A stretch of 64,000 nt of DNA from the IMG/VR virus record IMGVR_UViG_2974521666_000001. One strand, written 5' to 3'. The notes below the pieces were generated by a model. It ran no database searches. It had not been told where the DNA came from and saw only the letters and a program-made list of their open reading frames with translations. This DNA is from a virus. The stretch's first letter is position 1, and every line of letters begins with the position of its first letter. Positions 57,555-60,900 of the stretch are shown one piece after another. Made by a program: the position numbers and the translations under genes.

Positions 57555-57606
57555 CCACTAGATCCAGTGGTTGCGTCGTCCCAGGTCACGGGGTAGGCTG
57601 ACCTGT
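57555..57606 (+). promoter_or_regulatory. Repeat/palindrome cluster upstream of the primase gene (CCACTAGATCCAGTGG; TCGTCCCAGGTCACGGGGTAGGCTGACCTG inverted repeat)
   Basis: The 13-mer TCGTCCCAGGTCA and the 11-mer AGGCTGACCTG recur downstream of the primase gene (60553 and 60496). Confidence 0.4.
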
Positions 57607-57718
57607 TCACTGCCCTAACCTCTAACGATATGAGACGCCCTGAGCGTCAACCTCACGGCCGAAAACACAGTCACCTAGCGGATCTAGCGCGACGGCGCGC
57701 GAAAGAGGATGGACAAAC

Positions 57719-60466
57719 TTGAACGCACCCAAGAACATCGGAGCGGCAGCACCATTCGCGAAAGCGGCCTTGGAGTACACCTTGAAGGGGTGGAACGTTC
57801 TGCCGTTGCCTCCCAACAAGAAGAAATCACCACCCAGCAAAGAGGACGACGAACAGGGTCTAGGGTTTACGGGGCGCAACGGCCGACTTGCCACACGCGA
57901 TGACATAGATGCCTGGATACAGGACAAGCGGTGGCGCAAGGGCAACATTGCGGTACGGCCCGGCAACGAGGTCACCAACGACGGTGAGGCCTACGAGGTC
58001 ATAGGGATTGACGTTGACGACTACGACGGGAAGAGCGGCGCGGCTCACCTGGAAGAGCTGATCAAAACCTATGGGCCACTACCAAATACGTGGACAAGCT
58101 CGGCGCGCTCGGACGGCAAGAGCGGCATCCGCTGGTTCCTGACTCCAGTTGGCTACGAGTACATGGGCAAGCCGGTGCTGCCATCCACAGGCCGCGCCAG
58201 CGATAGTATCGAAATCGTACAGAGAGTGCACCGTTACGGCCTGGTGTTCCCCTCGATGCACCCCGACGGCATGCAATACCGTTGGTACGATAGGGGACAG
58301 GCCCCTGACGGCATCCACGTCAACGACCGTATCCCTAGGGTGCAAGAGCTGGCTGTACTGCCGGAGCGCTGGTGGAAGTTCTTGACTCGCAACGGCGTTG
58401 CCAACGCAGGTGGCGCTGTGATCGACATGCAGAGCACCAATGCACAGCTACGCAACTGGCAGAAGAAGCGCTGGGTCGACGGTGAAGACATGTGCGACAT
58501 CATGACCAACGCCCTCAACCGGCACCTGGAAGACGTGGACAGTGCCAGCGACCACCACGAGCCGCTTATCCGTGCGCACTGGAGCCTGTTGCGCCTAGGG
58601 GCGGAAGGACACACAGGCTGGGCCACAGCCTGCCACGTTCTCGAGCAGAGCTGGGCGGATCGTGTAGCGGCAGATCAAGTTCGGAGTGTTGCTGAAACCA
58701 AGTACGAGATTGCCCGGTCCCGCTACGGCACGCTGCGAAAGATCAAGGGCGAGTACGTTCAGTTCAAGCGCAAAGGCCTAGAGTACCTAGAGACTCTGGA
58801 TCCCTGTGAGTGCCGTCGCAACTGGGAGCCTCCCAAGCAACGCAAACCTCCTAAGAGGCCTACGCAATACGAGCGCAACGAGGACGGCAATGCACAGCAC
58901 TTCCTGCATCTTAACCGTGGCAACGTGCGGTTTGTCCCCAACTATCCTGAGTCCCAAGGCGGTAGGTGGATGCTGTTCAGAGACGGCCGTTGGGTGGTGG
59001 ACAACAAGGAAACCCTAGTGCGCCATATGTTCCGACGCGTCAAAACCAGGCAGCAACGGGATGCTCAGCGCCGGTTACAGCTGGCTGCTGCTGCTGTGGC
59101 TGCCGCCGGTGGTACAGCTGCCGCTACGCCTGCGCAGAAGGCAGAGCTGGCAGAGGCCAGAGCGTGGGTGGCGTTCGCGCTTGAGAGCGGCAACAAGGCC
59201 CGTGTGAGCAACAGCTTGGCTCAGGCCCAAAGCTTTCCGGACATTGCACTGTTGTACGAAGAGCTGGACAACAACCCAATGTTGCTTCCAGTGGCCAACG
59301 GGGTGATCAGGTTCCACACCAGGGAAGAGGTGCTGGCTGGAGCCAAACCCTTTGAGTGGGTACAAGATCCAGACGTGATCAAGCACGAGCTGGTCACGCA
59401 GAACACGCATGTGCCGTACATTCCGTTGCGAGAGCAGAAAGACCACCCCGACGCTGAGGTTCGCGAAGGCTACAAACGGTTCTGGGAGTACATGAACAAG
59501 TTCCTGCGCAGCCAGCTTGGTAAAGAGGCGTGGGAGTACACCCTTAAGCTACTAGGGGTTTCGATCCTCGGCGTGAACACCAAAAAGGCTGTGTTCCTAG
59601 TGGGTTTGCCACACACCGGCAAGAGCACCCTGCAGAACATGATGGACCACGCCCTAGGGGACCTATCGATTTGGCGCGAACCAGCCGTATTCGAGGACAC
59701 AACGTTCAAGTCCGCGCTGGCAGAGGCCCTGTCTCGCAGGGTCATGATGGTGGGAGAACTGGGCCAAAAGCATATAGACGCAGGCCTATTCAAGCGCATC
59801 ACAGGTGGAGACGAGGTGTCGTGCCAGCTCAAGAACATCAACAAGCCGGTGACGCTGAAGCCTAGGTGTACCATCATCTCTGGCTGCAACCAGGCCCCAG
59901 AGGTGCCAGACGTGGACGAAGCGACAAAGGAACGCTTTGTGGTCGTACCCTTTAGGCACCAGGTCACCGACGAGGAGCGCGACCCCAACGCCATTGACGA
60001 TCTGCCTGTGCAGTGCCGGTTTGCCATGCTAGCAACGTTGGTAGAGTTCGCCTCTCGTGGTTTGGTGGAGGGCGTTCACATCGTGCCCGATGAGCTGCAG
60101 TTTGAGACTAAGGAATTCGTGTCCAGTCTGAGCGAGCTGTCGGACTTCCTGAAGGAGACAGTGGTCCCGTCGCCACCTAGTGCCTGGAAGAAGTACGCAC
60201 GCAATGACCGTCTGGACGTGGAGAACCCCAAGCCACGGTGGCCCGACGAGCTGTGCCTTGGAGATCGAGACTTGTACAAACAGTACGAAAGATGGTGCAC
60301 ATCCAACGGCATCGCGCCAAGCGAGAAGCTTAGCAAGACTAAGTTCACACGCAAGCTGAAGGACAGTGGTTGGGTGCAGGACGGCAGCTGGACAGCGAAC
60401 AACCAACGGCGATGGCTTGGTTGGAGTTTCGCACCAACCGTTGCAAGGGTGAAGCGGGCCGACTGA
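57719..60466 (+). CDS. Bifunctional DNA primase-polymerase / D5-like SF3 helicase
   Basis: N-terminal prim-pol motifs (VIGIDVDD, SGIRWF), Walker A GLPHTGKST, and a D5/P4-alpha C-terminal helicase region. TTG start after GAAAGAGGATGGACAAAC. Confidence 0.7.
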   Translation: MNAPKNIGAAAPFAKAALEYTLKGWNVLPLPPNKKKSPPSKEDDEQGLGFTGRNGRLATRDDIDAWIQDKRWRKGNIAVRPGNEVTNDGEAYEVIGIDVDDYDGKSGAAHLEELIKTYGPLPNTWTSSARSDGKSGIRWFLTPVGYEYMGKPVLPSTGRASDSIEIVQRVHRYGLVFPSMHPDGMQYRWYDRGQAPDGIHVNDRIPRVQELAVLPERWWKFLTRNGVANAGGAVIDMQSTNAQLRNWQKKRWVDGEDMCDIMTNALNRHLEDVDSASDHHEPLIRAHWSLLRLGAEGHTGWATACHVLEQSWADRVAADQVRSVAETKYEIARSRYGTLRKIKGEYVQFKRKGLEYLETLDPCECRRNWEPPKQRKPPKRPTQYERNEDGNAQHFLHLNRGNVRFVPNYPESQGGRWMLFRDGRWVVDNKETLVRHMFRRVKTRQQRDAQRRLQLAAAAVAAAGGTAAATPAQKAELAEARAWVAFALESGNKARVSNSLAQAQSFPDIALLYEELDNNPMLLPVANGVIRFHTREEVLAGAKPFEWVQDPDVIKHELVTQNTHVPYIPLREQKDHPDAEVREGYKRFWEYMNKFLRSQLGKEAWEYTLKLLGVSILGVNTKKAVFLVGLPHTGKSTLQNMMDHALGDLSIWREPAVFEDTTFKSALAEALSRRVMMVGELGQKHIDAGLFKRITGGDEVSCQLKNINKPVTLKPRCTIISGCNQAPEVPDVDEATKERFVVVPFRHQVTDEERDPNAIDDLPVQCRFAMLATLVEFASRGLVEGVHIVPDELQFETKEFVSSLSELSDFLKETVVPSPPSAWKKYARNDRLDVENPKPRWPDELCLGDRDLYKQYERWCTSNGIAPSEKLSKTKFTRKLKDSGWVQDGSWTANNQRRWLGWSFAPTVARVKRAD

Positions 60467-60469
60467 AGA

Positions 60470-60900
60470 GAAGGGTTTCCTCAGGTTGATCAACAGGCTG
60501 ACCTGGGGAAATGGAAGTGATGATGAAAGGTGATGAGTTGCTGCGGGAGACATCGTCCCAGGTCAGGGCGTTTTTCAAGTTTGCTAATCATCAGTCCTCA
60601 CTTTAAATAGAATGATGTAGAGAGGGAAGAAAATACGCAATGTGCTCTAAAGTAATGCACACACATGCATTTCTTTCCGCGCACACATTTTCATGTAGAC
60701 GCTGTGAAGTCAGCTGAAACTGAGGACTGATGATACGGCCCATTTGCACTGGTCAGGGCGTTGCGGCCATCCTCACTTTTCGCGGGCGAGCCCCTGACCT
60801 GGGCAAATAGACAAATCAAACTGAGGATAGGCTTTAGACAAATGACGAACGACATTGCAACTCTAAAGGTTACAGCCGGCGACTAAAGAGAGGGATCGAA
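60470..60900 (+). other. Candidate origin of replication / regulatory region: AT-rich core flanked by direct and inverted repeats
   Basis: TGACCTGGG / CCCAGGTCAGGGCG copies at 60496, 60553, 60751 and 60791. An inverted repeat ATCATCAGTCCTCA (60587) / TGAGGACTGATGAT (60721). A direct repeat TCCTCACTTT (60595, 60770). An AT-rich core at 60601-60715. Confidence 0.45.

What the first reader, a model, noticed from the sequence alone, without database searches (positions are those of the whole stretch)
57555..60900. Shared repeat motifs bracket the primase-helicase gene; the downstream 430-bp AT-rich repeat region looks like an origin
TCGTCCCAGGTCA(C/G)GG occurs at 57576 and 60553, and AGGCTGACCTG at 57595 and 60496. 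Further GGTCAGGGCG and CCTGACCTGGGC copies occur at 60751 and 60791. The downstream region also has a 14-bp inverted repeat pair (60587 and 60721), a direct repeat TCCTCACTTT, and an AT-rich core (60601-60715) in an otherwise 62% GC genome. Initiator or primase genes flanked by their own binding iterons and an AT-rich DNA-unwinding element are a classic phage-origin arrangement. The same sites could also autoregulate primase expression.
Basis: partly seen in the sequence, partly recalled or inferred. Interest (0 to 1): 0.55.

Follow-up and report, generated by a model that had tools for sequence, protein, structure and literature searches.

The report
Probable phage replication origin beside primase
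The 435-bp non-coding stretch just after the primase-helicase gene of mycobacteriophage Send513 has the repeat-plus-AT-rich layout of a replication origin, a layout shared with many distant phages, whereas the matching motif upstream of the gene occurs in this genome only.

Summary
The window is Mycobacterium phage Send513 (Cluster R).

The downstream spacer (60467-60901) is a real, constrained cis element.
- It holds the least stable 100 bp of the whole genome.
- It carries two motif families almost confined to it: M1 (CTGACCTGGG) and M2 (TCCTCA[C/G]TTT).
- Across 10 Cluster R phages it varies three times less than synonymous sites of the primase gene. None of the changes falls in a motif core.

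Primase-helicase homologues of only about 30% identity carry the same module directly 3' of the gene. These come from other Mycobacterium, Gordonia and Nocardia phages and from metagenomic contigs. Each has its own iterons in inverted blocks around an AT-rich centre, plus a shared motif, CTCTGACCTGCG.

Experimentally mapped origins of related prim-pol/SF3-helicase initiators also lie directly 3' of the gene (pRN1 ORF904, SaPI Rep). An origin is therefore the best explanation (about 0.6), though untested.

The "bracketing" does not hold. The upstream copy lies in a Send513-only GIY-YIG endonuclease cassette that is absent from the other nine relatives. Autoregulation is therefore unsupported.

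The parts
57719..60466 (+). gp89, a 915-aa primase/polymerase-helicase and the presumed initiator. Domains: Prim-Pol (aa 17-193), D5_N (412-536), an SF3 helicase core, and a Pox_D5 C-terminal domain (850-897).
   Evidence: Annotation. Pfam. TIGR01613 P4-family primase C-terminal region just below its cut-off. Best solved relatives are poxvirus D5, ASFV C962R and SaPI5 PriRep5 (7OLA).
60467..60901 (.). The 435-bp non-coding module directly 3' of gp89, the proposed origin of replication.
   Evidence: 97-100% conserved in 10 Cluster R phages. Variable columns are 17/418 (4.1%), against 13.2% at primase third codon positions. An analogous module lies 3' of distant homologues.
60571..60716 (.). AT-rich core, the candidate DNA-unwinding element, lying between the two arms of inverted repeat IR-B.
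   Evidence: It contains the lowest-GC (35%) and the least stable (dG -125 against a mean of -147.9, sd 5.5) 100-bp window of the whole genome.
60498..60507 (+). M1 copy a: CTGACCTGGG (extended form AGGCTGACCTGGGGAAATGG).
   Evidence: Invariant in 10 Cluster R phages.
60557..60566 (-). M1 copy b. It reads CCCAGGTCAG on the + strand and is followed by GGGCGTTTTT.
   Evidence: Invariant. It overlaps a weak terminator-like hairpin at 60554-60570.
60747..60756 (-). M1 copy c, degenerate. It reads CACTGGTCAG on the + strand and shares GGTCAGGGCGTT with copy b.
   Evidence: 2 mismatches., D5.
60794..60803 (+). M1 copy d: CTGACCTGGG (extended form CTGACCTGGGCAAATAGA).
   Evidence: (D7). The core is invariant; variation at 60792-60793 lies just outside it.
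60595..60604 (+). M2 copy: TCCTCACTTT, the inner end of the left arm of IR-B.
   Evidence: (D1).
60717..60726 (-). M2 copy. It reads AAACTGAGGA on the + strand and is the inner end of the right arm of IR-B.
   Evidence: (I5).
60770..60779 (+). M2 copy: TCCTCACTTT, in the loop of IR-C.
60818..60827 (-). M2 copy. It reads AAACTGAGGA on the + strand.
   Evidence: (D8).
60478..60487 (+). Degenerate M2 copy: TCCTCAGGTT.
   Evidence: (D1).
60486..60578 (.). IR-A. The arms are 60486-60507 and 60557-60578 (22 nt, 77% complementary) with a 49-nt loop. The arm cores are M1 copies a and b.
   Evidence: I3. The DNA fold has z = -1.4, which is not exceptional.
60587..60734 (.). IR-B. The arms are 60587-60604 and 60717-60734 (18 nt, 94% complementary) and enclose the 112-nt AT-rich core.
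   Evidence: I5. DNA fold z = -3.5.
60742..60808 (.). IR-C. The arms are 60742-60758 and 60792-60808 (17 nt, 88% complementary) with a 33-nt loop. The arm cores are M1 copies c and d.
   Evidence: I9. DNA fold z = -3.3.
60511..60606 (+). gp90, an annotated 31-aa micro-ORF inside the module. Whether it is coding is unresolved.
   Evidence: Annotated in Send513 and JIND1 only. The two substitutions among the 10 phages are both synonymous third positions. No PHROG match.
57576..57605 (+). The upstream 30-bp copy of the two IR-A arm sequences in swapped order: TCGTCCCAGGTCAcGG-GGT-AGGCTGACCTG. It is found only in Send513.
   Evidence: (D5). Absent from the 9 other Cluster R phages. The hairpin is no more stable than shuffled sequence (z = -0.06).
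57132..57641 (+). The Send513-specific replacement segment. It holds the GIY-YIG endonuclease gene gp88 (57128-57535) and a 106-bp tail that carries the upstream motif copy.
   Evidence: Boundaries from pairwise BLAST. GIY-YIG domain. No close relative in any phage record.

Best explanation
The spacer at 60467-60901 is most likely the origin of lytic DNA replication of Send513 and the other Cluster R phages. It would be used by the primase/polymerase-SF3 helicase gp89, encoded immediately upstream.

Proposed sequence of events (inferred, by analogy with pRN1 ORF904, SaPI Rep and P4 alpha):
1. gp89 recognises the repeated sites through its C-terminal domain. These sites are M2 (TCCTCA[C/G]TTT) and the family-wide M1 (CTGACCTG[G/C]G). 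They lie in opposite orientations on both sides of the AT-rich core.
2. The long inverted repeats may extrude or help assembly of the complex.
3. The 60571-60716 core, the least stable duplex in the genome, melts.
4. Helicase hexamers self-load.
5. The Prim-Pol domain lays down the first primers.
6. The phage's own DnaE-like polymerase and sliding clamp (gp74, gp72) take over.

Shown here:
- the anatomy of the module;
- near-exclusivity of the motifs to this spacer;
- purifying selection on the spacer and its motif cores;
- recurrence of the same architecture 3' of distant homologues.

Inferred: protein binding, melting, helicase loading and priming.

The upstream motif copy at 57576-57605 is a Send513-only by-product of an endonuclease cassette. 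It is not part of the conserved system.
For: (1) Position and anatomy. The module lies directly 3' of the initiator-type gene. M1 and M2 copies sit in both orientations on either side of the AT-rich core, and there are three long inverted repeats.

(2) The core is the lowest-GC and least stable 100 bp of the whole 71.5-kb genome.

(3) Motif exclusivity. All 4 M2 copies and 3 of 4 M1 copies in the genome lie in 0.6% of its length.

(4) Constraint. Only 17 of 418 columns vary among 10 Cluster R phages (4.1%), against 13.2% at third codon positions of the adjacent primase gene. None of the 17 falls in the 90 nt of motif cores (P about 0.016). The conservation stops where the next gene switches to a different allele.

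(5) Comparative evidence.
- Of 26 non-redundant lineages with a full-length homologue (about 25-35% identity), 14 have the 10-mer CT[GA]ACCTG[CG][GA] within 750 bp 3' of the stop codon.
- That is 27 hits in 18.5 kb against 5 in 156 kb elsewhere (binomial P = 5e-22).
- In lineages not used to define the motif, the counts are 17 against 3.
- An unbiased 9-mer enrichment returns only M1 variants. For example, ACCTGCGGA with at most 1 mismatch is present in 14 of 21 downstream regions and 0 of 21 coding controls.
- In MrMiyagi, all 4 M1 copies and all 6 copies of its own iteron, GGTAACCGAAA, lie in the 530-bp post-primase gap of a 70-kb genome.

(6) Each lineage has its own iterons, often at 8-10-bp phasing, in inverted blocks around an AT-rich centre. 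Examples are Beyoncage TTACGGCA, Barnyard TGTCCCC and L029 AGTGTGAGGG.

(7) Precedent.
- pRN1 has the same Prim-Pol plus SF3 helicase plus winged-helix design. It needs a roughly 100-nt stem-loop directly 3' of orf904 for replication, and a similar stem-loop follows the homologue in Bordetella phage BIP-1 (PMC4234260).
- SaPI origins lie immediately 3' of rep, with iterons in opposite orientations on each side of an AT-rich region. SaPI5 PriRep5 (7OLA) is among the best solved relatives of gp89's helicase part (PMC9371898).

(8) Context. gp89 closes a replication gene block holding a helicase, a RecA-like protein, a sliding clamp and a DnaE-like polymerase.
Against: - There are no functional data of any kind.
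- Cumulative GC skew shows no inflection at the site. All genes are on one strand, so this says little.
- In Send513 the repeats are few and irregularly spaced. They are not a tidy tandem iteron array as in Beyoncage or Barnyard.
- The orientation of the flanking M1 copies differs between lineages (-/+, +/-, +/+, -/-). This is odd for a site that would orient a helicase.
- The most distant homologues (Zierdtviridae-type Gordonia, Rhodococcus and Corynebacterium phages) have no such spacer 3' of the gene.
- I could not show that the C-terminal domain is a winged helix. The single-sequence AlphaFold model was poor (pLDDT 43). No solved structure matched the domain. The homologue search returned nothing.
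- The spacer may also hold a terminator-like hairpin and a possible 31-aa ORF. These could account for part of the constraint.
Confidence: 0.6

Rival explanations
1. The spacer is a transcription boundary. It would hold the terminator of the replication-gene operon, followed by a promoter or operator region for the right-arm genes. M1 and M2 would be operator sites for a phage regulator.
For: A 5-bp GC-rich hairpin plus T5 lies at 60554-60575. The spacer separates gp89 from gp91. The TAGACAAAT direct repeat at 60808 and 60835 lies just before the start codon that relatives use for the long gp91 allele. Repeated inverted sites are also typical of operators.
Against: The consensus scan found no sigma-70-like promoter on the + strand of the spacer, and the terminator-like count is at the level of shuffled sequence (4 found against 3.6 expected). 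In Clusters D and H the homologous module is the last feature before the genome end, with no downstream gene. M1 occurs in all four orientation combinations. Arrays phased at 8-10 bp in inverted blocks around an AT-rich centre are more than a promoter needs. The module stays with the primase gene while the neighbouring genes change.
Confidence: 0.15
2. The spacer encodes a structured non-coding RNA or a 3'-UTR element. The three long inverted repeats would be its stems.
For: The RNA fold is better than shuffled sequence (z = -3.25). The C-to-T changes at 60792-60793 would keep G-U pairs in IR-C. The same genome carries a large ncRNA, GOLLD, elsewhere.
Against: The opposite strand folds even better (z = -4.49), as expected from DNA-level symmetry. 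No Rfam family matches, even at E <= 1. The conserved feature across lineages is a sequence motif, not pairing: the flanking M1 copies are in direct orientation in Genamy16, L027, L044 and L052 and so cannot pair. The arms in relatives are built from tandem short repeats.
Confidence: 0.07
3. It is another kind of protein-binding cis site that happens to travel with the primase gene. Examples are a partition or centromere-like site, a packaging or terminase recognition site, or a host-factor binding platform.
For: Centromere-like and cosB-like sites also consist of repeated short motifs. In Clusters D and H the module lies within a few hundred bp of the right genome end.
Against: In Send513 the module is 3.1 kb from the genome end. 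In MrMiyagi it is 7.3 kb from the end, and in several metagenomic contigs it is mid-contig. No ParA/ParB genes lie nearby. The strict linkage is to the primase-helicase gene, and an AT-rich easily melted centre has no role in partition or packaging.
Confidence: 0.1

Closest known systems
pRN1 (Sulfolobus plasmid) replication protein ORF904 and its origin, with the analogous stem-loop in Bordetella phages BIP-1/BPP-1 (PMC4234260)
   Same: The protein design is the same: an N-terminal Prim-Pol (AEP) domain (Pfam PF09250 hit), an SF3 helicase and a C-terminal DNA-binding domain. The cis element needed for replication lies directly 3' of the gene and is a roughly 100-nt stem-loop. Send513's IR-B is a 148-nt stem-loop in the same position.
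   Different: The pRN1 origin is described as lacking iterons. Send513 and its relatives have repeated short motifs on both sides of an AT-rich centre. The hosts are an archaeon and an actinobacterium. No detectable sequence similarity of the DNA element was tested or expected. Replication function here is untested.
SaPI (Staphylococcus aureus pathogenicity island) Rep/PriRep and ori (PMC9371898)
   Same: The ori lies immediately downstream of the rep ORF. The iterons are split by a central AT-rich region, with at least two on each side pointing in opposite directions. The initiator is a self-loading helicase. SaPI5 PriRep5 (a primase-helicase fusion, 7OLA) matches gp89's helicase region (E = 4.7e-8 with the single sequence, 1.5e-15 with the profile).
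   Different: SaPI iterons are 5-6 nt long, with 6-12 copies. Send513 has two 10-nt motif families and long inverted repeats. Similarity to PriRep5 covers the D5_N and helicase part and only the start of the C-terminal domain. SaPIs are satellites, not phages.
Phage P4 alpha protein with ori and crr
   Same: It is a multidomain primase-helicase-origin binding protein. gp89 nearly reaches the TIGR01613 'P4 family primase C-terminal' cut-off (103.2 against 108.7 bits). From my own knowledge, P4 uses two iteron clusters, ori and crr, several kb apart.
   Different: The P4 primase domain is of the bacterial Toprim type (stated in PMC4234260). The second, upstream motif cluster exists only in Send513, so a bipartite ori/crr design is not a feature of Cluster R.
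Mapped replication origins of extrachromosomal mycobacterial prophages (Wetzel et al. 2020, PMC7157519)
   Same: These are the only mycobacteriophage origins I found that were defined experimentally. The host genus is the same.
   Different: They serve prophage maintenance and use RepA-like proteins or RNA-based systems. The paper mentions neither a primase nor Cluster R.

Membership tests
Initiator-linked origin with repeats flanking an AT-rich region (SaPI-type) | The cis element lies immediately next to (3' of) the initiator/helicase gene. | tested here: met
   The module starts 1 nt after the gp89 stop codon. The same position is seen in 14 or more distant lineages.
Initiator-linked origin with repeats flanking an AT-rich region (SaPI-type) | [quoted passage not shown] | tested here: met
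   Left of the core: M1 at 60498(+) and 60557(-), M2 at 60595(+). Right of the core: M2 at 60717(-), 60770(+) and 60818(-), M1 at 60747(-, degenerate) and 60794(+).
Initiator-linked origin with repeats flanking an AT-rich region (SaPI-type) | An easily melted AT-rich centre. | tested here: met
   It is the least stable 100-bp duplex window of the genome, 4 sd from the mean.
Initiator-linked origin with repeats flanking an AT-rich region (SaPI-type) | The initiator binds the repeats specifically through a C-terminal winged-helix domain. | tested here: inconclusive
   Pfam Pox_D5 hits aa 850-897 (23.7 bits, cut-off 21.4). The AlphaFold model of aa 757-915 was poor (pLDDT 43). No solved structure matched the domain. 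Binding itself is not testable with these tools.
Initiator-linked origin with repeats flanking an AT-rich region (SaPI-type) | The element supports initiator-dependent replication. | not testable with these tools
   This needs plasmid replication or marker-frequency experiments.
pRN1-type origin (stem-loop 3' of a Prim-Pol/SF3 helicase gene) | The replication protein has Prim-Pol plus SF3 helicase domains. | tested here: met
   Pfam Prim-Pol, E = 2e-18. The profile matches the D5, C962R and PriRep5 helicases.
pRN1-type origin (stem-loop 3' of a Prim-Pol/SF3 helicase gene) | A large stem-loop of about 100 nt directly downstream of the gene. | tested here: met
   IR-B spans 148 nt with an 18-bp stem (z = -3.5). 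IR-C spans 67 nt (z = -3.3).
P4-type bipartite origin (ori plus crr) | A second cluster of the same repeats several kb away, conserved with the system. | tested here: not met
   The upstream copy at 57576-57605 is present in Send513 only. It is absent from 9 of 10 Cluster R phages.
Intrinsic terminator | A GC-rich hairpin immediately followed by a T run. | tested here: inconclusive
   There is a 5-bp stem at 60554-60570 followed by TTTTT. The number of such sites in the region equals the expectation from shuffles.
Sigma-70-type promoter | -35 and -10 hexamers at 16-18-nt spacing. | tested here: not met
   No site in the spacer on either strand by the consensus scan. Weak or non-consensus mycobacterial promoters are not excluded.
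Described structured RNA family (Rfam) | A covariance-model match. | tested here: not met
   No match in 57400-61000 at E <= 1 other than a chance lncRNA hit inside the primase gene.

The most novel reading that the evidence does not exclude
The post-primase module is a previously undescribed, family-wide origin design in phages of Mycobacterium, Gordonia and Nocardia and their uncultured relatives. It would have two tiers. The first is a universal element, cCTCTGACCTGCGgaaA, read by a conserved part of the Prim-Pol/SF3 helicase or by a conserved host factor, perhaps as the loading or priming site. The second is a set of lineage-specific iterons that give each phage its own origin specificity. 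If so, gp89 plus about 450 bp would be a portable minimal replicon. These would also be the first defined lytic origins of mycobacteriophages.
Probability: 0.35. Interest if true: 0.65.

Novelty: new member of a known kind. Interest (0 to 1): 0.5.

Why it matters
I found no report of a mapped lytic replication origin for any mycobacteriophage; the one experimental study I found concerns prophage maintenance (PMC7157519). The present result gives a precise, testable candidate of 435 bp, with defined motifs to mutate, for Cluster R. By homology of design it also gives candidates for Clusters D and H, the Fowlmouth-like phages, several Gordonia and Nocardia phage groups and uncultured relatives.

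If confirmed, gp89 plus the spacer could serve as a compact replicon or an infection-amplified vector for mycobacterial genetics. The combination of one shared motif with lineage-specific iterons would be a natural system for studying how self-loading SF3 helicase initiators evolve origin specificity.

The design itself, an initiator gene next to repeats and an AT-rich region, is textbook. A specialist would be interested rather than astonished.

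Tried and rejected
- Cumulative GC skew over the window rises steadily with no inflection, so it is uninformative.
- Donor of the upstream motif: blastn of the GIY-YIG cassette and tblastn of gp88 found no close relative. The origin of the 30-bp copy stays unexplained.
- The upstream hairpin as a structure: it is no more stable than shuffled sequence.
- Rfam scans gave no family in the region.
- Fold of the gp89 C-terminal domain: the single-sequence AlphaFold model was too poor to use. 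phmmer of the domain against PDB found nothing. The search for homologous proteins with aa 597-915 returned no hit, so no alignment could be built.
- Plasmids: no full-length homologue of gp89 in PLSDB, so there is no natural plasmid replicon to compare with.
- Literature: no paper mentions Send513's origin, and the motif strings appear only in unrelated contexts.
- Small ORFs in the spacer, other than gp90:
  - 60761-60886(+) has changes mostly at first and second codon positions.
  - 60603-60749(-) is broken by a 1-nt insertion in Rope.
  - Both are rejected as genes.
- M1 as a -35 element: by eye, no usable -10 lies at the right spacing.

Full report
**Identity and context**

The window is Mycobacterium phage Send513 (Cluster R, genus Papyrusvirus, JF704112). 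Window position equals record position minus 7547, and the window runs to the right genome end.

The gene at 57719-60466 is gp89, a 915-aa protein with these domains:
- Prim-Pol (aa 17-193);
- D5_N (aa 412-536);
- a C-terminal Pox_D5 domain (aa 850-897).

It nearly reaches the P4-family primase C-terminal model. Its best solved relatives are poxvirus D5, ASFV C962R and the SaPI5 primase-helicase PriRep5, 7OLA. It closes a block of replication genes: a helicase (gp66), a RecA-like protein (gp70), a sliding clamp (gp72) and a DnaE-like polymerase (gp74). All genes in the region are on the + strand.

**The observation**

The repeats are not chance.
- CCCAGGTCAGGG with at most 1 mismatch occurs only in the two spacers flanking gp89.
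- The 10-mer CTGACCTGGG (here called M1) has 4 copies in the whole genome, 3 of them in the 435-bp spacer.
- TCCTCA[C/G]TTT (here called M2) has 4 copies, all in the spacer.

M2 is present twice in each orientation. There are also three long inverted repeats:
- IR-A, 60486-60507 / 60557-60578;
- IR-B, 60587-60604 / 60717-60734;
- IR-C, 60742-60758 / 60792-60808.

The AT-rich core between the arms of IR-B is the lowest-GC window (35%) and the least stable 100-bp duplex window of the entire genome. Its dG is -125 kcal/mol against a mean of -147.9 and sd of 5.5. The stated genome composition was wrong: the window is 55.9% GC, not 62%.

**The upstream copy is a one-genome feature**

Nine other Cluster R phages are in GenBank. 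The 435-bp downstream spacer is present in all of them at 97-100% identity. The upstream motif pair (57576-57605) is not. It lies inside a 510-bp segment, 57132-57641, that only Send513 has. This segment consists of a GIY-YIG endonuclease gene (gp88) and a 106-bp tail. The relatives carry an HNH endonuclease gene or small ORFs at this place. In most of them the preceding gene overlaps the primase start, and none has a CCAGGTCA copy upstream of the primase gene.

The 30-bp copy reproduces the two arm sequences of IR-A, including flanking bases, but in swapped order. As a hairpin it is no more stable than shuffled sequence (z = -0.06). No donor was found. The primase gene is therefore not 'bracketed' in any conserved sense. 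Autoregulation through an upstream site cannot be a property of the system.

**The downstream spacer is under selection**

Among the 10 Cluster R phages, 13.2% of third codon positions of the primase gene vary, against 1.2% of first and 0.55% of second positions. In the non-coding spacer only 17 of 418 columns (4.1%) vary. None of the 17 falls within the 90 nt that make up the M1 and M2 cores (P about 0.016 if changes were spread evenly).

Conservation ends where the next gene, gp91, switches between two strongly divergent alleles.

Two of the three small ORFs in the spacer are not supported. One has mostly first- and second-position changes. The other is broken by a 1-nt insertion in Rope. 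The annotated 31-aa gp90 (60511-60606) cannot be excluded, because its two changes are both synonymous.

**The module travels with the gene across very distant phages**

tblastn finds full-length homologues of gp89 at only 25-35% identity in other Mycobacterium phage clusters, in Gordonia and Nocardia phages and in IMG/VR contigs. Their DNA is not alignable with Send513. Even so, the gene is followed by a 240-540-bp non-coding stretch with a GC dip. In Cluster H phages one tiny gene intervenes.

In that stretch each lineage has its own short repeats, arranged as inverted blocks around the AT-rich centre and often phased at 8-10 bp:

| Lineage | Repeat |
|---|---|
| MrMiyagi | GGTAACCGAAA |
| Beyoncage | TTACGGCA |
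| Barnyard | TGTCCCC |
| L029 | AGTGTGAGGG |
| L033 | AATGTGTAACA |
| L042 | GGTTACACTTT |
| L043 | AATTACCA |
| L048 | GGTTACCTG |
| L052 | ATGGAGGAT |

On top of this, one motif is shared across lineages, and Send513's M1 is a variant of it.
- An unbiased 9-mer enrichment over 21 lineages returns only M1 variants. For example, ACCTGCGGA with at most 1 mismatch is in 14 of 21 downstream regions and 0 of 21 coding controls.
- The 10-mer CT[GA]ACCTG[CG][GA] gives 27 hits in 18.5 kb of downstream sequence against 5 in 156 kb elsewhere in 26 non-redundant lineages (P = 5e-22).
- In lineages not used to define the motif, the counts are 17 against 3.
- In the complete MrMiyagi genome all 4 copies, and all 6 copies of its own iteron, lie in the post-primase gap.
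- Forty-nine instances in 18 lineages give the consensus cCTCTGACCTGCGgaaA. The flanking positions are biased even though they were not used for the search.
- Two copies typically lie 150-180 bp apart on either side of the AT-rich centre.
- The most distant homologues, of Zierdtviridae type, have convergent genes after the primase gene and lack the module.

**Interpretation**

The evidence points to a protein-DNA recognition site that co-evolves with the primase-helicase:
- a cis element fixed at the 3' end of an initiator-type gene;
- repeats in both orientations around the most easily melted DNA of the genome;
- lineage-specific repeat sequences with a conserved layout.

The experimentally defined origins of the two best-studied relatives sit in exactly this position.
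- pRN1 has the same Prim-Pol, SF3 helicase and winged-helix design. It needs a roughly 100-nt stem-loop directly 3' of orf904, and this works when moved elsewhere. A similar stem-loop follows the homologue in Bordetella phage BIP-1 (PMC4234260).
- SaPI origins lie immediately 3' of rep. Their iterons sit on both sides of an AT-rich region in opposite orientations and are bound by the Rep C-terminal winged helix. The helicase self-loads (PMC9371898).

I therefore take the spacer to be the origin used by gp89, with confidence about 0.6. Binding, melting, loading and priming are inferred, not shown.

**Rivals**

*Terminator plus promoter or operator region (0.15).* A weak terminator-like hairpin exists at 60554-60575, but such sites are no more frequent than in shuffles, and no sigma-70-like promoter was found in the spacer. 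In Clusters D and H the module is the last feature before the genome end.

*Structured RNA (0.07).* The RNA folds better than shuffled sequence on both strands, and better on the minus strand. That is what DNA-level symmetry gives. No Rfam family matches. The shared motif occurs in direct orientation in several lineages and so cannot be a conserved stem.

*Partition or packaging site (0.1).* The distance to the genome end varies from about 60 bp to more than 7 kb, and no partition genes are nearby.

**Novelty**

I found no paper that describes this element, the motif, or any lytic origin of a mycobacteriophage. The design is a known kind. What is new is its identification in Cluster R and, more usefully, its recurrence with a shared motif across many actinobacteriophage lineages.

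Noticed in passing
window 43658-44118 (+): A full-length GOLLD RNA (Rfam RF02032, 180 bits, gathering score 150, model positions 1-416). It lies in the 1.16-kb unannotated gap between gp68 and gp69 (window about 42989-44151). No tRNA genes are present in the window.
   Followed up: partly
window 57128-57641, and L002-L010 at the same place: The slot immediately upstream of the primase gene is a hot spot for free-standing homing endonuclease genes. Send513 has a GIY-YIG gene there. Most other Cluster R phages have an HNH gene, while Candle and Rope have neither.
   Followed up: partly
window 60884-61100, and alignment A1 columns 478-729: The gene after the spacer (gp91) comes in two strongly divergent 5' alleles among Cluster R phages. 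The breakpoint is exactly at the end of the conserved spacer. In the other allele the ORF starts at the ATG at 60843 inside the spacer, which in Send513 opens only a 14-codon ORF.
   Followed up: partly
window 60907-60918 (-): A further M1-like copy, CTTTACCTGCGC, overlaps the first codons of the Send513-type gp91 allele (ATGGATGCGCAGGTAAAG). It resembles the TTTACCTGCGG variant of Gordonia phage Genamy16.
   Followed up: no
window 60808-60816 and 60835-60843: The direct repeat TAGACAAAT occurs twice, 27 bp apart. These are its only copies in the window. The second copy ends in the ATG used by the long gp91 allele of relatives.
   Followed up: no
L024 32386-33401 (MrMiyagi): A roughly 1-kb unannotated gap follows gene 36 of MrMiyagi, similar in size to the gap that holds GOLLD in Send513. 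No Rfam family reaches its gathering score there.
   Followed up: yes
L035 about 4521-4541 (648 nt after the primase stop): A metagenomic IMG/VR contig carries CTGACCTGGGGAAATGG, identical over 17 nt to Send513's M1 copy a with its flank. Its primase is only about 27% identical to gp89.
   Followed up: no
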